Shown in pieces: positions 6,564 through 63,610 of a DNA stretch of 64,000 nt (the first letter of the stretch is position 1; the number at the start of each line of letters is the position of its first letter). The position numbers and the translations under genes are program-made. The notes under the pieces are model-generated. The model made no database searches. It saw only the letters and a list, made by a program, of their open reading frames with translations, and was not told the DNA's origin. Origin of the DNA: Lytechinus pictus (taxonomy: Eukaryota); the NCBI RefSeq assembly GCF_037042905.1, contig NC_087246.1, forward strand, positions 13,844,233 to 13,908,232, read 5' to 3'.

Positions 6564-7194
6564 CTGAACAACATTGGAAGAAGAAATATTAGAAATTAGT
6601 TTGCACGTAAAACTTGATTTTTGCATTTCATTTTTGCTTTTGAGAAATATTTACACAAGTTGATTCAATTTTATATATTTATTCATTTATAAATTTTTTC
6701 CTCATAAAAAGCAGGGTAGTCCGAGTGCCAGAGGCCTGCTTTACGAGGGAGCCTTGTTATAAAAACAATTCATATTTCAAACATTATACAATCACATTTA
6801 TAACATACACAATCAAATCAAACATCAAATATACACAATACAAAAAAGAGGGGGAAAAAATATATATGTGTATATGTATATACAGTATAAATTACACAAA
6901 CACAAATAAATAAGCTCACTTGGATTTTACTTTAAAATAGGAATTGAGGCAGAGCATTTAATACGTACAGATAACATGTTGAAAATTTTCAATGCTGTAT
7001 AGGAGAACAGCTGTTTTTTTATACTCCTTTCTTGGTTTTGCGAGATGTGATTTCTGCATTGAGAAGGATCTTGTAATGTAGAGTAATGATTAGTTCTCAG
7101 AGGCATGGTTTGCTTTAATTACCAGGACTCCAGGAGCAAGACCGTCCAGAATTTTATACAATCTGTTTTTAACAGATAGCAATTTCAAAGAATC

Positions 7195-7960
7195 CAACAA
7201 ACCCTGGGGTGATATTTTGATCATTGTCTTTTCTCCACATTTTCTCTTTTCTCAGAGATATGACAGAATCAGTATTCTGGTGGATGTCATAAGTTAACTT
7301 TTGTCATAAAAATCTTCTCTTAAGCGTGCACCAAAAATATGCGGTTCTTAAATGCACATAATCACAATATACAAGCAAATGATATGACAAAATTCATGAC
7401 ACAGTCCAGCACTTGTAGCAGTCATAAAATTTTGTCATATCTTTTAGTATCAATTCCCTGCCGACTATTAATGTCAAGCATACAATTCTATTAATTAGAT
7501 TACATTGTGGCATTAATTTCATTCATCTTCCATGACTATTTTCATAGATATTTTTTCATGCTACAATTAGTTAAGCCCTGCATATTAATTGTTTTCCCCT
7601 TTTTTCTATCTCTTCTAAAAATTCTTCACAGCTCTGTCTCTCATTCTAATTAAGCGCATCAATATAGACGCAGTTGTGTGATGCCAGCTACTGTATTGAA
7701 GATATGCCCCACTTGCCACCGGGTCTTCCTATTGATTAGAAGAACTCCCACTGGGAACTAATGGTGATTTTGATTGGTGCCTCTGAAAAGATGGGAATGA
7801 ACTTGGAGAGATATGACAAGGAAAAGACAATGTTCAGAATACCGATTTGTGACAGTATCATAGCGGTGTCATATCTCAGAGAGAAATAACAAAATTTATG
7901 ACAAAAGTTATGACAGTGTTCTAGAATACCACCCCTGGACTCTGCTATAATAATCTGCAT
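7195..7960. mobile_element. Probable foldback element with inverted ends that share the motifs cattgtcttttc, gagatatgaca and ttgtcataa
   Basis: 7213-7300 against the reverse complement of 7780-7950, imperfect. Confidence 0.35.
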
Positions 7961-13235: not shown

Positions 13236-15730
13236 ATCATTTGGGTTACCTCGAGCGAAGTTCGTGCAGGCTCCACTCCACTACCGCTACACTACAGCTA
13301 CACTACACTCCACCTACCCGAACTTCGAGACGGTGAACCAGTTCGGATATGGATGGAAATCATGCTTATCGTAAATAACTTAATATCTTACTCTACACCC
13401 GTATTTCACTCCGTTTCCATCCTCCGGTTTATTTAATTGCTACCACCAAAGTTCCAAACAGATATCCGAACGGTTTCCGCCCGCGTGGACGGATAACGCC
13501 TTAGTTTAACGGTTTTCATTTTTCGGGTTCGGGTATCCGTGGACACTGATTCACCACTTTCCTGTCACAAAAACTCATTAAATTTAGTAAGACTCACCAA
13601 AAAATTTATAAGTTTTAGACTTTTAGTCGCCAATATAATCACCAATATCAGTTAATCTTCTTCGGTAATAATATATTCCCGCCGAAAACCATCGTTTTTA
13701 TATCAGTTTTGAAACATGACCTGTCTTATATCAGTTTTGGAGCATGACCGTCCGTGAATGGAGTAAAGTTCCATTCTGACAACGATGGCGATTTTACTAT
13801 GGTGTCGCTTAAGATCGTTTTTCTTTCCCGTCTTATGTTTTGATGATTTTAAATGCGTAACTCATAGTATATTTTCTTACCTCGACTTTCAATGCGAGTG
13901 AAGAATGAAGATAATTTGAAACCATTTAAGCGTCAAATAAATGTTGATCGGTTACTCAGGTGTGTCATGTTGTTTCTTGTAATTTATTCATCAAATGCAA
14001 AATGAATTCTACTTTTCTCACAGCAACTTTGGTTACCATGATTAGTTTTGAAACTATGAAAAGTTGAAAACGTCGAATGAATGTTGATTGCGTGTGTCAT
14101 GTTGTTTCTTGTAATTTATTCATCAAATGCAAAATGAATTTTACTTTTTCTCACAGCAACTTTGGTTACAAATGAAGATGATTATTTTTCAAACTATGAA
14201 AAGTTGAAAACGTCGAATAAATGTTGATTGCGTGTGTCATGTTGTTTTTGTGATTTGATAATGGCGGACTTTGTGATGAATGATAATGAGAGTGAAACTG
14301 AAATGAATGACGATGATGATGAGTGATGGCTAGTGAAAATGATTTTAAATAATTATCAAGATTGGTGAAGATGATAGCAATGAATGATGATGAGAATTAT
14401 GAAAGAATGATAATTGTCAATTGAAAATCTCTTTCATGAATTAATATTCAATATATAAATTACAAAACACACATTTTCCTTTCTTTCAGTTTAAATGGCA
14501 TATCCACTATAAATTTTGATATCCATCATCACGTAAACAACAATACTTAAAAGGCGGTATCGTGCCAGAAAAAAGGTTTATGATGTGCGCCCGCCGAGTA
14601 TGTGGTCGGTTGTGAATCGACGTGTTTTGCAGTAAAACTTACTGGTGATGAATGTAAGTGATTAGTTACTGATACTGTGATTAAATCTTGTCTTTAATCT
14701 TTGTTAGAAGTGTGATTATGTTTCAGAAGTTGAGAAATGAGAAGCTTGGCTATAATTTGGGGAATGGGGAGAAACCCGACATGAAAATATTCCAAGTACG
14801 ATCCCATTTGAAGGTGTAGCGAGTGTAATGTGACCAAATATATATCGGACGATTCACTCCAGACACGTCCAGCCAGGACAGCACGTGCGTGAGCTGAATG
14901 ATGTAGGCCTGTCTGGTTTTAGACTTTTAGTAATAGTAGACTCGCACTTACACTCGCCTCTGTCAAATTCATTGCATCTTATTTCATTCGATCGGAACTA
15001 AAAAATAAACACACATACTCTCGCAACCATTAAATGGGATCGTAACTAGGCCTGACTTGTATAACTCAAATAATAGTCATTTACTAATAGCTTACACAGT
15101 CATACGATCTACATTTGTAGCCGTAGCCTCACGCTAACTCACATTAGTCAAATTCAATTGCAAAACAGATTCAACCCAAAATATTCAGCTTCTCGTAATT
15201 TTGTGGTTTTCAGAAATATTTTACCGGTATTAGCGCACGCTGACTCTCGCCATCATCGGATAGGTTCAAAACTCAAATATAACTGAAAATCTTAAATATA
15301 ACTCAAATAAGTGCAAATGGATATTTATTATTATTTTTTATATTTCAGGGTAAAATTTCGGATACCCGTCCGCCGTCCGGTTTTCAGTGTCGGGTATCCG
15401 AATATTGAAATATCCGTTTCAAGTCAGGCCTACTCCGGTTATCCTCAAAATTGGTGATTTTGGGCCAGTATCTTTTTCCTCACACGTATTATTCACGGCC
15501 GATTTCTAAACATCGCATGCGGGTGTAGAGTAAGATATTAAGTTATTCATCTTTCTCGTTATATTTTTTTCTTAAATTTTTACGATAAACATGTTTCCAT
15601 CCCACCTTTGTGACTCGATATATCCGAACTGGTTCACTGTCTCGAAGTTCGGGTGGGTGGAGTGTAGTGTAGCGGTAGTGAAGTGGAGTGGAGCCTGCAC
15701 GAACTTCGCTCGAGGTAGTGCACGCTCCAC
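13236..15730. mobile_element. Non-autonomous DNA-transposon-like element of about 2.5 kb. It has TIRs of about 200 bp (ctacctcgagcgaagttcgtgcaggctccactcc...ccgtatttcactccgt.tccatcctc), subterminal inverted GGATACCCG/CGGGTATCC motifs, and an internal tandem repeat.
   Basis: 13236-13440 is the reverse complement of 15480-15730. Subterminal motifs lie at 13455-13545 and 15355-15420. Confidence 0.7.
13958..14262. repeat. Internal tandem repeat, about 2.3 copies of a unit of about 135 bp (gtgtgtcatgttgtttcttgtaatttattcatcaaatgcaaaatgaatt...)
   Basis: Direct repeats at 13958-14091, 14092-14233 and a partial copy from 14234. Confidence 0.8.
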
Positions 15731-17520: not shown

Positions 17521-18618
17521 TCTCACCTGCATAGCAGTGTGAGACTATAGGCGCCGCTTTTCCGACGGCGGCGGCGGCGTCAACATCAAATCTTAACCTA
17601 AGGTTAAGTTTTTGAAATGACAGCATAACTTAGCAAGTATATGGACCTAGTTCATGAAACTTGGCCATAAGGTTAATCAAGTATTACTGAACATCCTGCC
17701 TGAGATTCATGTCACATGACCAAGGTCAAAGGTGATTTAGAGTCAATGAACTTAGACCATGTTGGGGGAATCAACATCAAAATCTTAACCTAAGGTTAAG
17801 TTTTTGAAATGTCATCATAACTTAAAAATGTATGGACCTAGTTCATGAAACTTGGACATAAGGTTAATCAAGTATCACTGAACATCCTGCATGAGTTTCA
17901 CGTCACATGACCAAGGTCAAAGGTCATTTAGGGTCAATGAACTTTGGCCAAATTGGGGGTATCTGTTGAATTACCATCATAACTTTGAAATTTTATGGAT
18001 CTGATTTATGAAACTTAGACATAATAGTAATCAAGTATCACTGAACATCCTGTGCAAGTTTCAGGTCACATGATTAAGGTCAAAGGTCATTTAGGGTCAA
18101 TGATCTTTGGCCAAATTGGGTGTATTTGTTGAATTACCATCATTACTTTGAAAGTATATTGGTCTAGTTCATTAAACTTGGACATATAAGAGTAATCAAG
18201 TATCACTGAACATCCTGTGCGCATTTCAGGTCACATGACCAAGGTTAAAGGTCAATGAACTTTGGGCGAATGGGGGTATCTGTTGAATTACCATCATAAC
18301 TTTGAAAGTTTATGGATCTGATTCATGAAAGTTGGACATAAGAGTAATCAAGTATCACTGCACATCCTGTGCGAGTTTCAGGTCACATGATCAAGGTCAA
18401 AGGTCATATAAGGTCAATGAACTTTGGCCAAATTGGGGGTATTTGTTGAATTACCATCATATCTCTGTAAGTGTATTGGTCTAGTTCATAAAACGTGGAC
18501 ATAAGAGTAACCAAGTATCACTGAACATCTTGTGCGAGTTATAGTAGGTTTCAAAGTCAGCACTGCTGCTATATTGAATCGCGTGATGCAGGTGAGACGG
18601 CCAGAGGCATTCCACTTG
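17521..18618 (+). mobile_element. TIR-bounded element (termini gtctcacctgca...tgcaggtgagac) carrying an internal satellite-like array of 5-6 units of about 170-190 bp
   Basis: Units recur with ggtcaaaggtcatttagggtcaatgaactttggccaaattgggggtat and atcaagtatcactgaacatcctg. A second copy lies in inverse orientation at 62830-63610. Confidence 0.7.
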
Positions 18619-31169: not shown

Positions 31170-31443
31170 GTAAGTTGCCAATGATAACAGTGCTTTGTGG
31201 CTACTACAGGGACTCTGTTGGTTTAATGGATATATTCGAATTTCAATTAATATAGACTACTTTGAGCTTAGGTTTATAGTGTGTGATAGGGTTTTTAATC
31301 AGAATAAATATGAGGACTATGATTCATGTTTGAGATTAGGTGTCATATTTGTCTTCATGTGCAGATTTTCTATTGGAGCAATTACCACTAGAGAAAACCT
31401 TCCTACCAATTGTCAAAACACAATTCTACATATTCTTTACCAG

Positions 31444-32485
31444 GTGTTATCAGCCATACCAGCGGCTATGAGAAACAGAAATACATGGCAGCGGTAAGTG
31501 TGTTACAATCAGATGACCCTGAAGACATTCAGCTCTTACCACCAGAAGAACGGGACAGTCTACTATCTAGTCCGGAGAAGAATGACAGCAGAGAAGAGAA
31601 CAAGAGACTGAAGGATGAATGGGATGACGATGATGATTGGGATGATGAAGAGGATACAGAGGAGAAGGTTGATAAGAAGAAGGTCACAGGAAGAATGGAT
31701 GCCTCGGATGAAGAAACCGATGATTCTGATGGAGATTTTGATGATGAAGATGATACAGAGAAGGAGATTGATAAGAAGAAGGTCACAGGAAAGATGGATG
31801 CTGCTGATGATGAAACCGATGATTCTGATGGTGATTGGGACGATGAAGATGATGAGGAAGAAGAAGAAGTTGTGGAACTTCTGGCAGAAATCAAAGAAAC
31901 TGAAAAAAAAGCCAAACTTGCTGCAAACCAAGCAAGTAAAGATGCAGAGAAAAATATACCCTCTGGTAAGACTGCTGATAAGGACAGCAAAGAATCAGAA
32001 GACAGCGACTTTGACTTTGACAATGATGATGAAGAAGAAGTTGAGTTTATGAATAAAAAACAGAGCAATGAAGCTCTGAAATCAGCCATGATAGTTAATA
32101 ATATCTCAGGAAATGTGAAATGTGTTGAAAATAATGCTTCCAAAAATACTGCCAATAGTACCAAGGTGCTAAAACAAGGTTCTGTTGAGAAGGACAATAT
32201 CTTGAAAGGCTCCCCCAAAGAACCTGTGACAAGAAAAACCTCTGTTGACAAAAAAGGCCTGTCTAGAACAACTTCCAGTGATTCTCTAGGTGCAGTGATC
32301 CCAGCGAATGTTTCAGTAGATGGGACTGAGCATGGGGCCAAAAAGGATTTCACAAAGGGAAGGAAGGTTGAGACTGAGATACCAGTAGAGGAGGAGAGTC
32401 CCAGGCGAGGAGATGTGAAGCCAACAAGAAGTGAGAGCAGTAGAAGTTCTGGGAGTGAGAAAGAAGAAAAGAAGAAGAAAGGAGG
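31444..32485 (+). CDS. Large gene exon 8 (1042 nt). A highly acidic, disordered region with a tandem 40-aa repeat (EEKVDKKKVTGRMDASDEETDDSDGDFDDEDDT and EKEIDKKKVTGKMDAADDETDDSDGDWDDEDDE), then a K/S-rich segment.
   Basis: Acceptor ttctttaccag|GT and a strong donor GGAGG|gtaaga. An in-frame TAA (32487-32489) lies inside the donor consensus, so the unspliced read stops there (ORF 31410..32489). Splicing continues in frame into exon 9. Confidence 0.7.
31655..31894 (+). repeat. Coding tandem duplication (2 x about 120 bp) inside exon 8
   Basis: Near-identical 120-bp units at 31655-31774 and 31775-31894, each encoding a K-rich then D/E-rich 40-aa unit. Confidence 0.8.
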
Positions 32486-32819
32486 GTAAGAAAACATGTC
32501 AATACGTTATGAAAGTCTCTTGATTTTTCACCATTGCGTTATAATAGTAACTTCCAATTCCAAAGACACATGCTGTAAACATCGTTTACTGGTAGACGAT
32601 GAACACAAAAAAAGGTGAGGAAAAAGAAGAATCCTTTATCAATCATTTAACCATTTTAGAAATCTATAGATATAAAGTTTGTTGAATTTAATGTATCTTT
32701 TTTCTTTTACCTGTTTTTCATCACTGAAGAGATGCTTTATTAATCCAACTTTTTTAGTCTAAATCTCACTATCGAAAGAAAAAGACTATTTTGAATGTGT
32801 ATGATTCTTGTTCATGTAG

Positions 32820-55400: not shown

Positions 55401-55984
55401 ATACAATTGTAATGCTTATATTATGTTGAATATTCTCTGAATATATCCATCAACTTGCATATATACATATGCATGGTACTGTATACACACACATTTGCAT
55501 CTAGCACCCGTTTTCTTTAAAACAATATTCACAGGACCTTCCGGATTTAGCAATCTGTCCACATATTGATTACCTTTTCTCAATAAAAAGGAGGAAGAAT
55601 CCATCCTCTTTGATCAAATATCATACTCTCTTTTCAAACATGAGACATTTTACCTCCTTGTCTTGCTCCAACTTAAAACAAGACAAATATTGCCCTCAAG
55701 ATCAATGTAATCACTTTACAGAAATAAATTAAGGGAAGAAACAAGCTAAGTTCTTCATGCAAAATTCAACGAAATTATATAAGAAGTATTCATTTTGAAA
55801 TGTCATACACTTAGGGCTGTAACAGAATAACTTCAACTGTCAAATTAAAATCCTCAATCTGTTGACATCAGTACACATAGTGTTGTTTCATTTTTATATT
55901 TGGCTTGTATCGTGTTTTTATTAGGCTTACATTATGCCAAAACTGACACAGATGTCCTCAACACAATGGCACAAATGTCCTGGC

Positions 55985-56215
55985 CATGACATATGCTTTT
56001 CCATTGATGAAGGCCACTGAACCTTCAACTCCCTGGCTGGGTGCAGGGGTATTTGTGATTGACATAGAGCTAGGTTCAATGCCTAGTAGATCAACAAAAT
56101 GCATATGATGGAGTTTTGCATAGTCTACAAACAGTGGAACAATCTCATGAATGAATGAGAGGCGTTGAATTCCCTCACTCGGCACAGGGATATGAGATTG
56201 AAATGAGTCTTAGTA
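55985..56215 (-). repeat. Two degenerate tandem copies of the 3' end of the SPT6 terminal coding exon, lying in the 3'UTR
   Basis: Plus-strand 56025-56085 (tcaactccctggctgggtgcaggggtatttgtgattgacatagagctaggttca) and 56150-56205 align with the coding segment 56295-56365 (cccctcctccctggctgggtgcaggggtgtttgagatggacattgggctaggttca). Confidence 0.65.
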
Positions 56216-56276
56216 CACGTAATGCAGGTACTGGCTATTCGATGGAGCTTCATGAGGTCCATAAACATCAATACAT

Positions 56277-56502
56277 TCAAATCTCTTCATCAATGAGGGG
56301 CGTTGAATCCCCTCCTCCCTGGCTGGGTGCAGGGGTGTTTGAGATGGACATTGGGCTAGGTTCATGTAGGGCAGGGCTAGGTTGGACGGCTGGGCTTCGC
56401 AGGTTCTGTTGGCGTTGTTTGGCCCAAAGGGCAGCTTGCTGGGCCCAGTCCACTGGGCCTCCAGTACGTGGCACTTCACGGCTACTGCTGCTACCACTAC
56501 TC
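56277..56502 (-). CDS. SUPT6H: SPT6 terminal coding exon (RSSGSSSSREVPRTGGPVDWAQQAALWAKQRQQNLRSPAVQPSPALHEPSPMSISNTPAPSQGGGDSTPLIDEEI*), stop TGA at 56279-56277
   Basis: Acceptor tatattcag|GAGTAGTGG; phase 2 in. The C-terminus resembles the Spt6 tail as I recall it (..[23 protein letters not shown]...[21 protein letters not shown]..). Confidence 0.85.
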
Positions 56503-60481: not shown

Positions 60482-60604
60482 CTCTTCTCCAATCTTTAAT
60501 GTTGATCCCAGACTGAAATCATTATCTTTGCCTTCTTCTTGTACATCAATATGCTGATAAATACCATCATCTACTTTCCATGTAACAGTTAAGTGATCAG
60601 CTCC
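60482..60604 (-). CDS. SUPT6H: SPT6 exon ([41 protein letters not shown])
   Basis: Acceptor ttaatag|GGAGCTG and donor GAAGAG|gttggt; 123 nt, phase 0 in and out. A partial duplicate lies at 60641-60752. Confidence 0.8.
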
Positions 60605-60640
60605 CTATTAAATCAAATTAAATCAAATCAAATCATTTAA

Positions 60641-60752
60641 TGTTGATCCCAGACTGAAATCATTATCTTTACCTTCTTCTTGTACATCAATATGCTGATA
60701 AATACCATCATCTACCTTCCATGTCACTGTCAAATGATCAGCTCCCTAATAA
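60641..60752 (-). pseudogene. SUPT6H: Partial tandem duplicate of the previous SPT6 exon, in the upstream intron. The acceptor is intact, the last 13 nt and the donor are missing, and every coding difference is synonymous.
   Basis: ggatttattag|GGAGCTGATCATTTGACAGTGACATGGAAGGTAGAT... is colinear with the exon at 60482-60604. There are six nucleotide differences, all synonymous. The copy is followed by a (TGATTT)n-like tract and then the true exon's acceptor. Confidence 0.6.
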
Positions 60753-61193
60753 ATCCAATTAAGTCAATCAAATCATTGAAAGTTAATTTTTAAATATAAT
60801 CATTCTGAATTGTTGTGTAGGAAGATTTTTTGGTGTATTTTGTGTACTTCTGTGTTGTTTCTTTTGAACAAAAATCCTCGCAAATTCTGATTTTTGTTTT
60901 ACCATTAAATTTCACAAACACATCCACATCATCATATATAATCTGGCCTGCCTACACACAATGTACGCATTCTACACTTTAATCCATAGAGATGTATTCG
61001 TGCTAGTGAGATGTATTCAAACCAGTTGCTGTGTGAGGTACCCACGATACTGAGGAAACTCCCTGACTTCACATAGCAAAAATACACATTTTAAATTTAA
61101 AAAAAAACACTACCTTCAAGTACATTTAGCATTAGAGAAAAATTTATATTGCTTATCTATCCACAAGAATAATTCATATTTGCAGAAATTTAC

Positions 61194-62829: not shown

Positions 62830-63610
62830 AACAAGTGGAATGCCTCTGGCGGTCTCACTTGCCTCACGAGATTCAATATAGCAGCAGTGCTGACTTTGAA
62901 AACTACTATAACTTGCACAAGATGTTCAGTGATACTTGGTTACTCTTATGTACACGTTCTATGAACTAGACCAATACACTTACACAGATATGATGGTAAT
63001 TCATCAGAGACCCCCATTATGGCCAAAGTTCATTGACCTTTGACCTTGGTCATGTGACCTGAAATGCGCACAGGATGTTCAGTGATACTTGATTACTATT
63101 ATGTCCAAGTTTCATGAATCAGATCCATAAACTTTCAAAGTTATGATGGTAATTCAACAGATACCCCCAATTCGGCCAAAGTTCATTGACCCTAAATGAC
63201 CTTTGACCTTGGTCATGTGACGTGAAACTCGTGCAGGATGTTCAGTGATACTTTATTAACCTTATGTCCAAATTTCATGAACTAGGTCCATATATTTTCT
63301 AAGTTATGATGACATTTCAAAAACTTAACCTTAAGTTAAGATTTTGATGTTGATTCCCCCAACATGGTCCAAGTTCATTGACCCTAAATGACCTTTGACC
63401 TCGGTCATGTGACATGAAACTCAGGCAGGATGTTCAGTAATACTTGATTGACCTTATGGCCAAGTTTCATGAACTAGGTCCATATACTTTCTAAGTAATG
63501 TTGTCATTTCAAAAACTTAACCTTCGGTTAAGATTTGGTGTTGACGCCGCCGCCGCCGCCGCCGTCGAAAAAGCGGCGCCTATAGTCTCACTCTGCTATG
63601 CAGGTGAGAC
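62830..63610 (-). mobile_element. Second, shorter copy of the satellite-carrying TIR element, inverted relative to 17521-18618, inside a SUPT6H intron
   Basis: 62830-62900 is the reverse complement of 18545-18618. 63540-63610 (gacgccgccgccgccgccgtcgaaaaagcggcgcctatagtctcac) is the reverse complement of 17521-17590. Confidence 0.75.

What the first reader, a model, noticed from the sequence alone, without database searches (positions are those of the whole stretch)
55985..56502. The SPT6 C-terminal coding segment is triplicated in tandem, with the two downstream copies decaying in the 3'UTR
The segment encoding ...SPMSISNTPAPSQGGGDSTPLIDEEI* recurs twice more downstream on the minus strand, at 56150-56205 and 56025-56085. 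These copies have frame-disrupting indels. The distal copy still reads ..SSMSITNTPAPSQGVEGSVAFINGKAY.., which may be a remnant of alternative terminal coding sequence or of replication slippage. The conserved core (tccctggctgggtgcaggggt) could also be a 3'UTR regulatory element kept in three copies.
Basis: seen in the sequence. Interest (0 to 1): 0.5.

Follow-up and report, generated by a model that had tools for sequence, protein, structure and literature searches.

The report
Decaying tandem copies of SPT6's coding end
The last ~90 coding bases of the SPT6 gene, with its stop codon, were copied head to tail twice; the extra copies sit after the real stop codon, are decaying, and look like ordinary mutational debris that lengthened the 3'UTR.

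Summary
On the minus strand there are three abutting, colinear units of about 140 nt: A 56372-56226, B 56225-56084 and C 56083-55935. Their pairwise local-alignment scores lie 7 to 23 SD above shuffles. Unit A is the true end of SPT6. It carries the metazoan-conserved terminus ...EPSPMSIS..GDSTPLIDEEI* and the first stop codon. Units B and C follow that stop and lie before the first AATAAA (55922-55917), so they are most likely 3'UTR.

Two details in the finding are wrong. Only B has indels; C aligns to A without gaps over 77 nt at 79% identity. The 21-nt "core" occurs twice (A and C), not three times.

Nothing supports a function for the extra copies:
- The GDSTPLIDE motif is destroyed in both.
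- A/C mismatches show no third-position bias.
- Splicing from the penultimate exon to the AG before C gives R-H-stop.
- There is no Rfam hit and no unusual RNA fold.
- There is no further copy in the 64-kb window.
- Four related SPT6 loci each have one copy only, at the coding end.

Best reading: neutral relics of local tandem duplication across the stop codon, now about 80% of the predicted 3'UTR. A second, younger 141-nt tandem duplication of an SH2 exon lies in the same gene. Low interest.

The parts
56277..56502 (-). Last coding exon of SPT6 (acceptor ...tattcag|G; stop TGA at 56279-56277). It encodes (R)SSGSSSSREVPRTGGPVDWAQQAALWAKQRQQNLRSPAVQPSPALHEPSPMSISNTPAPSQGGGDSTPLIDEEI*
   Evidence: Sequence reading and translation. 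Homologues end in GD[AS]TPL[IYLFW]DE plus 0-4 residues. The upstream exons hit Pfam S1 and SH2_2.
56226..56372 (-). Unit A, the functional and ancestral copy. It holds the last 96 nt of the CDS including the stop (56372-56277) plus the first ~51 nt after the stop.
   Evidence: It is colinear with the single coding ends of relatives L006 (nhmmer E 2.4e-6), L005 (E 2.2e-4) and L003 (E 6e-3).
56084..56225 (-). Unit B, the middle decayed copy. It matches A at 83/112 aligned positions with several indels (-2, -7, +1, -5...), and the homology includes ~45 nt of A's post-stop tail. The best-kept part is 56151-56176 (88% to A).
55935..56083 (-). Unit C, the distal copy. It is ungapped against A over 77 nt (56002-56078) at 61/77 identity: 45/50 in the 5' part and 16/27 in the part matching GGDSTPLID. 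Its tail is not recognisably similar to the tails of A and B.
56315..56336 (-). 22-nt run (acccctgcacccagccagggag on the minus strand) in unit A that is identical to 56029-56050 in unit C.
   Evidence: With the same number of mismatches placed at random, a run at least this long occurs with P about 0.04.
56029..56050 (-). The same 22-nt run in unit C.
55917..55922 (-). First AATAAA after the stop codon, 355 nt downstream and just past unit C. None of 11 hexamer variants occurs between the stop and this site. This is the predicted poly(A) signal, which places B and C in the 3'UTR.
   Evidence: consensus scan only; not transcript evidence
55883..55928 (-). A 22-nt unit repeated 2.1 times in tandem, overlapping the poly(A) signal. 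This is another small local tandem duplication.
55958..56185 (-). 75-aa open frame running through the end of B and all of C (…GIEPSSMSITNTPAPSQGVEGSVAFINGKAYVMARTFVPLC*). It is judged to be a leftover frame, not a coding exon.
   Evidence: A concatenated query that included this ORF found no homologue.

Best explanation
The array is a neutral relic of local tandem duplication, arising by replication slippage or unequal exchange in one or two events. The duplicated segment was about 140 nt and spanned the last ~90 nt of the SPT6 coding sequence, the stop codon and the first ~50 nt after it.

The upstream unit keeps its own stop codon, so the protein is unchanged. The two downstream units are transcribed as 3'UTR, are free of coding constraint, and are decaying by substitutions (C) and by substitutions plus indels (B).

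Net effect: the distance from the stop codon to the poly(A) signal grew from roughly 65-70 nt to 355 nt.

Shown: the colinear triplication, its statistical significance, the loss of the conserved motif, and the absence of extra copies in the relatives available. Inferred: 3'UTR status, the mechanism of duplication, and neutrality.
For: - Three abutting colinear units; pairwise z is 7 to 23 against shuffles.
- A-B homology continues ~45 nt past the stop. The duplicated unit was therefore genomic DNA spanning the CDS/UTR border, not a coding module.
- Unit A alone carries the metazoan-conserved terminus GD[AS]TPL.DE. The motif reads GVEGSVAFIN in C and is broken by indels in B.
- The 16 A/C mismatches fall at codon positions 1/2/3 as 6/4/6, so there is no synonymous excess.
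- No poly(A) hexamer occurs before 55922, so B and C lie within the predicted 3'UTR.
- nhmmer with a profile of the three units finds no other copy in the 64-kb window.
- The same profile finds exactly one hit, at the coding end, in each of L001, L003, L005 and L006. Self-comparisons of their downstream DNA are not significant: z 2.4, 1.9 and -2.0 for L001, L005 and L006.
- The locus and genome show the same kind of event elsewhere: a 141-nt tandem duplication of an SH2 exon at 60488-60765 (93% identity), a 22-nt x2 repeat on the poly(A) signal, and a 140-nt-period repeat at 13960-14256.
Against: - Similarity of C to A is uneven: 45/50 in the 5' part against 16/27 in the 3' part (Fisher P 0.003, ungapped). 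There is also a 22-nt perfect run (P about 0.04). This could mean gene conversion or selection on that part, although allowing gaps softens the contrast.
- A is no closer to its neighbour B than to C, and C's tail is not recognisably homologous to the tails of A and B. The history is therefore not a simple clean triplication.
- The four relatives are too distant to show whether closer relatives keep the copies; their 3'UTRs are essentially unalignable.
- No transcript data are available to prove that B and C are in the mRNA.
Confidence: 0.8

Rival explanations
1. The copies, or at least the 22-nt core shared by A and C, form a selected cis-regulatory element of the SPT6 3'UTR. It could be a binding site for a protein or small RNA that also recognises the coding end, and it was multiplied to raise its dose.
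For: A 22-nt perfect run and 45/50 identity in the 5' part of C contrast with 16/27 in the rest. Under a lenient scoring scheme only, the window 3'UTR shows weak colinear similarity to the downstream region of relative L005 (score 63 against dinucleotide shuffles 34.7 +/- 5.2, max 59).
Against: - The core is present in 2 of 3 units only.
- No extra copy is detectable in L001, L003, L005 or L006.
- The L005 similarity vanishes with stricter scoring.
- No Rfam family matches (best E 0.35, far below gathering).
- The fold energy is ordinary (z -1.33).
- The run-length P of 0.04 is marginal and was chosen post hoc.
Confidence: 0.08
2. Unit C (or B plus C) is, or recently was, an alternative terminal coding segment that gives an SPT6 isoform with a different C-terminus.
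For: - C is ungapped against A, and its frame stays open for 75 codons (55958-56185).
- An AG with a modest pyrimidine tract precedes C (ttttgttgatctactag|GC at 56083/56082).
- An intra-exonic GT (AGCC|GTGAAG, 56480) would join it in frame to give ...SSGSSSSRIEPSSMSITNTPAPSQGVEGSVAFINGKAYVMARTFVPLC*.
Against: - Splicing from the penultimate exon into that AG gives R-H-stop.
- The in-frame intra-exonic option is one of 24 trivially available GT-AG pairs. It has a poor donor context, and all real acceptors of this gene read here are CAG|G or CAG|C.
- The isoform would lose both conserved blocks, VDWA..WAKQ and GDSTPLIDE.
- A/C mismatches show no synonymous bias.
- No protein in 5.8 billion matches a concatenated query of the ORFs of this region, including this one.
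Confidence: 0.04
3. The similarity reflects low-complexity composition, an assembly artefact, or a dispersed repeat or transposable element that happens to overlap the exon.
For: The SPT6 C-terminal region is Pro/Ser/Thr-rich, and the exon has a small internal repeat (AACCTAGCCC twice, 21 nt apart). The genome is rich in 140-190-nt tandem repeats.
Against: - The alignments are colinear over 87-128 nt, include non-coding tail sequence, and far exceed shuffles.
- The copies differ by 21-26%, which a collapsed or expanded assembly would not produce.
- There is no further copy on either strand of the 64-kb window.
- Unit A is orthologous to the single coding ends of four relatives.
Confidence: 0.02

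Closest known systems
Small local tandem duplications from replication slippage or unequal exchange, such as internal tandem duplications of tens to hundreds of bp and their decaying relics (general knowledge, not tested against a database)
   Same: The units are head to tail, abutting and colinear, of about 140 nt. The breakpoints ignore functional borders, since the unit spans CDS, stop codon and UTR. Similar events lie nearby in the same gene (60488-60765; 55883-55928).
   Different: In-frame ITDs inside coding sequence change the protein. Here the first unit's stop codon shields the protein, so the event is silent at protein level and only lengthens the 3'UTR.
Tandem exon duplication giving mutually exclusive or alternative exons (Kondrashov and Koonin 2001; Letunic, Copley and Bork 2002; cited from memory)
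   Same: A coding segment is duplicated in tandem next to its parent. One copy (C) still has an open frame and an AG in front of it.
   Different: The unit is not an exon: it starts inside the last exon and has no splice sites of its own. The frame from the upstream exon is closed (R-H-stop). The conserved motif is lost and there is no sign of coding constraint.
Repeated cis-regulatory motifs in 3'UTRs, such as multiple microRNA or RNA-binding-protein sites (general knowledge)
   Same: Repeated sequence within one predicted 3'UTR, with a 22-nt block kept perfectly in two places.
   Different: The block is shared between the CDS and one UTR copy, not among all UTR copies. It is not conserved in the relatives examined, and no structure or Rfam family matches.

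Membership tests
SPT6 / SUPT6H transcription elongation factor (identity of the host gene) | S1 domain followed by the SPT6-specific tandem SH2 domain (Pfam PF14633) | tested here: met
   Concatenated exons from 62.7-56.3 kb (minus strand): SH2_2 1-211/211, 273 bits, E 1.6e-81; S1 at 32 bits. Hits are named 'transcription elongation factor SPT6-like'.
SPT6 / SUPT6H transcription elongation factor (identity of the host gene) | Metazoan C-terminal end ...DWA..A..WA... then GD[AS]TPL.DE within 0-4 residues of the stop | tested here: met
   The window reads VDWAQQAALWAKQ...GGGDSTPLIDEEI*. The same pattern is seen in hemichordate, insect, fish and unnamed sequences (alignment).
Tandem duplication relic (non-functional copies) | Colinear head-to-tail copies with similarity beyond composition | tested here: met
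   (z 7-23); units abut at 56226/56225 and 56084/56083.
Tandem duplication relic (non-functional copies) | Loss of coding constraint in the extra copies | tested here: met
   B has several indels and C has lost the motif. A/C mismatches by codon position are 6/4/6.
Tandem duplication relic (non-functional copies) | Extra copies absent from orthologous loci (derived and not conserved) | tested here: inconclusive
   Only one copy is found in each of L001, L003, L005 and L006. These relatives are so distant that neutral copies would be unrecognisable anyway. No close relative was found.
Alternative 3'-terminal coding exon | Splice acceptor that joins the upstream exon in frame to an open frame | tested here: not met
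   Penultimate exon (ends ...CAGAG|gtatgg) joined to TAG|GCATTGA gives R-H-stop.
Alternative 3'-terminal coding exon | Transcript or peptide evidence for the isoform | not testable with these tools
   No transcript of this species was found. A protein search with a concatenated query of the ORFs of this region found nothing.
Conserved 3'UTR cis-regulatory RNA element | Conservation in orthologous 3'UTRs, or a match to a described RNA family or structure | tested here: not met
   There is no extra copy in four relatives. Best Rfam E is 0.35, below gathering. Fold z is -1.33. The core occurs in two units only.
Dispersed repeat / transposable element | Additional copies elsewhere in the genome | tested here: not met
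   nhmmer --max and blastn (word 7) over the 64-kb window find only the three units. The rest of the genome is not available.

The most novel reading that the evidence does not exclude
The part of unit C that stays 90% identical to the coding end, including a 22-nt perfect block, may be kept by selection or by recurrent gene conversion. It could be a second copy of a sequence-specific RNA site shared by the SPT6 coding end and its 3'UTR, for example for autoregulation or small-RNA targeting. Alternatively, intra-exonic splicing (56480 to 56082) may yield a real SPT6 isoform with a replaced C-terminus that lacks the GDSTPLIDE motif.
Probability: 0.05. Interest if true: 0.45.

Novelty: new member of a known kind. 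Interest (0 to 1): 0.2.

Why it matters
It matters little for biology at large. It is a clean, datable example of how a small tandem duplication that straddles a stop codon is silent for the protein yet builds most of a 3'UTR (about 290 of 355 nt) from former coding sequence. This is raw material on which regulation could later act.

For annotation, it warns that gene predictors or protein-to-genome aligners may place the SPT6 C-terminus on the wrong copy. The same applies to the duplicated SH2 exon at 60.5-60.8 kb.

If the uneven conservation of unit C proved selective, it would point to an uncharacterised RNA-level role of the SPT6 coding end.

Tried and rejected
- TRF on the region found nothing for the array because the copies are too diverged. 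It reported only a 22-nt x2 repeat and a TTTA run.
- A fourth unit downstream (55934-55790) or upstream (56510-56373): no significant similarity (z between -0.8 and 1.6).
- A protein search with all ORFs of the region concatenated, both strands, to fish out contigs of close relatives: no hit even at E 10.
- Protein searches with the C-terminal 265 aa and with a profile of six C-termini gave only distant relatives. Of these, L001, L003 and L006 carried the last exon. L002 and L004 did not reach it. P0019's contig had no DNA available.
- The one metagenome DNA scan gave L005, the relative with the most similar last exon. No paper mentions its accession prefix.
- Orthology of the 3'UTR with L005 depends on the scoring scheme, so it was left as inconclusive.
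- A weak match of unit B and of L001's own coding end to L001 1549-1605 was not significant (z 0.4 and 2.4) and was dropped.
- The Rfam scan and RNA folding of the 3'UTR gave nothing.
- A literature search for a named class of stop-codon-spanning tandem duplications found nothing specific (one search failed on syntax).

Full report
**Gene and exon**

The minus strand of 56.3-63.8 kb carries the 3' part of an animal SPT6 gene. Its concatenated exons match Pfam S1 and the complete SPT6-type tandem SH2 model (PF14633, positions 1-211 of 211, 273 bits). Database hits carry the name 'transcription elongation factor SPT6-like'.

The last coding exon runs from 56502 (acceptor tattcag|G) to the TGA at 56279-56277. 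It encodes ...VDWAQQAALWAKQRQQNLRSPAVQPSPALHEPSPMSISNTPAPSQGGGDSTPLIDEEI*. Homologues from hemichordates, insects, fish and many unnamed assemblies all end in GD[AS]TPL[IYLFW]DE followed by 0-4 residues (alignment). The annotated stop is therefore the real, ancestral one.

**Check of the observation**

- The repeat finder reports a 77-nt ungapped pair, 56288-56364 and 56002-56078, at 79% identity and 286 nt spacing. It also reports a 26-nt pair, 56289-56314 and 56151-56176, at 88% identity and 138 nt spacing.
- Cutting the region into three abutting pieces and aligning them gives a colinear three-way alignment: A 56372-56226, B 56225-56084, C 56083-55935.
- Local-alignment scores against 200 shuffles:

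| Pair | Score | Shuffle mean +/- SD | z | Notes |
|---|---|---|---|---|
| A-B | 65 | 17.9 +/- 3.3 | 14.3 | 83/112 identical, several indels, homology runs ~45 nt beyond the stop |
| A-C | 92 | 17.6 +/- 3.2 | 23.5 | 69/87 identical |
| B-C | 37 | 18.0 +/- 2.6 | 7.3 | |

- Neither a fourth unit downstream nor one upstream is detectable.
The copies are colinear and include non-coding tail sequence.

Two details of the finding need correction:
- Only the middle copy has indels. The distal copy is ungapped against A over 77 nt and differs by 16 substitutions.
- The 21-nt core is found twice, in A and C, even allowing three mismatches. It is not found three times.

**Position relative to the transcript**

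Scanning the minus strand after the stop for AATAAA and ten variants gives no hit for 354 nt. The first AATAAA is at 55922-55917, directly after unit C. This is a consensus argument, not transcript evidence. It places B and C inside the predicted 3'UTR. The two extra units (about 290 nt) make up roughly 80% of the 355 nt between the stop and the poly(A) signal, so the ancestral distance would have been about 65-70 nt.

**Are the extra copies used?**

Coding:
- The conserved motif GGDSTPLIDEEI reads GVEGSVAFINGK in C and is broken by indels in B.
- The A/C mismatches fall on codon positions 1, 2 and 3 as 6, 4 and 6, so there is no synonymous excess.
- The AG in front of C (ttttgttgatctactag|GC, 56083/56082) joined to the penultimate exon gives R-H-stop.
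- An intra-exonic donor (AGCC|GTGAAG at 56480) would be in frame. However, it is one of 24 trivially available GT-AG combinations, it has a poor context, and it would remove both conserved blocks.
- No protein among 5.8 billion matches a concatenated query of the ORFs of this region.

RNA element:
- No Rfam family matches (best E 0.35, 20 bits against a gathering score of 65.7).
- The 377-nt 3'UTR folds no better than shuffles (z -1.33).

Dispersed repeat:
- A profile of the three units (nhmmer --max) and blastn with 7-nt words find only the three units in 64 kb, on either strand.

**Related loci**

No close relative is present in the searchable collections. Four more distant SPT6 last exons with downstream DNA were recovered:
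- L001 (Logan SRR32120561...EPSPMVLATPASVGHGDATPLIDES*)
- L003 (ENA...GGDSTPLIDER*)
- L005 (JAAUXV010204817.1...INEPSPMSISTPAGDATPLFDET*)
- L006 (ENA...EPSPMSISSTPAHSMGGDATPLFDET*)

In each locus the three-unit profile hits exactly once, at the coding end: E 0.42, 6e-3, 2e-4 and 2e-6. Comparing each coding end with its own downstream DNA gives nothing significant: z 2.4, 1.9 and -2.0 for L001, L005 and L006.

Unit A is therefore the ancestral copy, and B and C are additions not seen elsewhere. There is an important limit. These relatives are so diverged that their 3'UTRs are not alignable with the window. The only exception is a weak colinear similarity with L005, which appears under a lenient scoring scheme only (63 against 34.7 +/- 5.2, max 59) and disappears under stricter ones. 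The data therefore cannot say whether closer relatives share or conserve the copies.

**Open points in the anatomy**

- C is 45/50 identical to A in its 5' part but 16/27 in the part matching the conserved motif (Fisher P 0.003, ungapped). It includes a 22-nt perfect run (P about 0.04).
- B shows the opposite tendency: 32/50 in the 5' part, while its 26-nt stretch over the motif is 88% identical.
- By eye, against the L005 and L006 sequences read and the alignments, most states shared by A and C in the 5' part are also those of the relatives. They look ancestral, so B has simply decayed more there and C more in its 3' part. I did not tabulate this.
- At one site (TCA/TCC in ...ATGTC[A/C]ATC...), B, C and L006 share A while unit A has C. 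This points to a synonymous change in A after the duplication.
- Patchy decay, a short gene-conversion tract between A and C, or two duplications with different breakpoints all fit. C's tail is not recognisably like the tails of A and B. These cannot be separated here.

**Mechanism proposed**

One or two local tandem duplications, by replication slippage or unequal exchange, copied a ~140-nt piece of genomic DNA straddling the stop codon. The first unit ends with its own stop, so translation terminates as before. The extra units became 3'UTR and drift.

The same process is visible elsewhere in this gene and window:
- A 141-nt tandem duplication of the acceptor and first 108 nt of an SH2 exon (60765-60628 and 60624-60488; 127/137 identical).
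- A 22-nt x2 repeat on the poly(A) signal.
- A 140-nt-period repeat at 13960-14256.

**Comparison with known things**

- It behaves like any small tandem duplication relic.
- It is not a tandem exon duplication of the kind that yields mutually exclusive exons. The unit has no splice sites of its own, the frame is closed, and there is no coding constraint.
- It does not meet the criteria of a conserved 3'UTR element.

It is a new instance of a known kind of event. It is mildly instructive as a case where former coding sequence now forms most of a 3'UTR, and it is a trap for annotation.

**Scores**

| Measure | Value |
|---|---|
| Interest | 0.2 |
| Confidence in the relic reading | 0.8 |
| Probability of the most novel reading not excluded (selected RNA site, or an alternative C-terminus through unit C) | about 0.05 |

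Noticed in passing
window 60488-60765 (minus strand; TRF 60491-60784): A second, younger tandem duplication lies inside the same SPT6 gene, with a 141-nt period and 127/137 identity. The unit is the 3' splice site plus the first 108 nt of an SH2-domain exon. Both copies keep an AG acceptor and encode the identical 36 aa [36 protein letters not shown]. All 6 coding differences are third-position synonymous. Only the downstream copy continues to a donor (...KIGEE|gttggt); the upstream copy runs into NDLI*. It is probably a decoy acceptor or pseudo-exon. The synonymous-only pattern is unexplained.
   Followed up: partly
window 55883-55928: A 22-nt unit is repeated 2.1 times (79% matches), overlapping the predicted poly(A) signal AATAAA of SPT6. 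This is another small tandem duplication at the same gene end.
   Followed up: no
window 17580-18540 and 63100-63545: A satellite-like tandem repeat family with 160-190-nt periods is present twice in opposite orientation. One copy lies inside an SPT6 intron. The two are 95% identical over 445 nt.
   Followed up: partly
window 13960-14256: Tandem repeat with a 140-nt period, 2.2 copies and 90% matches. It is unrelated in sequence, but its unit length is the same as the two SPT6 duplications.
   Followed up: no
window 31410-32489 (+), repeat 31635-31864: A long open frame (359 aa) encodes a very acidic Asp/Glu/Ser-rich protein and contains a 99-nt (33-aa) in-frame tandem repeat of 2.3 copies. 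A 322-aa ORF overlaps it on the opposite strand (31529-32497) and a 122-aa one as well.
   Followed up: no
window 55887-56144 against L005 375-638: A weak colinear similarity links the window's 3'UTR (from the tail of unit B to past the poly(A) signal) with the downstream region of the SPT6 last exon in L005. It is significant only under a lenient scoring scheme (63 against shuffle max 59) and absent under stricter ones.
   Followed up: partly
L003 about 6930-7390: The relative's SPT6 downstream region carries a long imperfect microsatellite-like array (CAACAACAACCAACATCAA)n starting about 390 nt after the stop codon.
   Followed up: no
window 56351-56381 (minus strand): The 10-nt motif AACCTAGCCC occurs twice, 21 nt apart, inside the last exon (QPSP.../EPSP...), just at the 5' edge of unit A. 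It could have served as microhomology for slippage.
   Followed up: no
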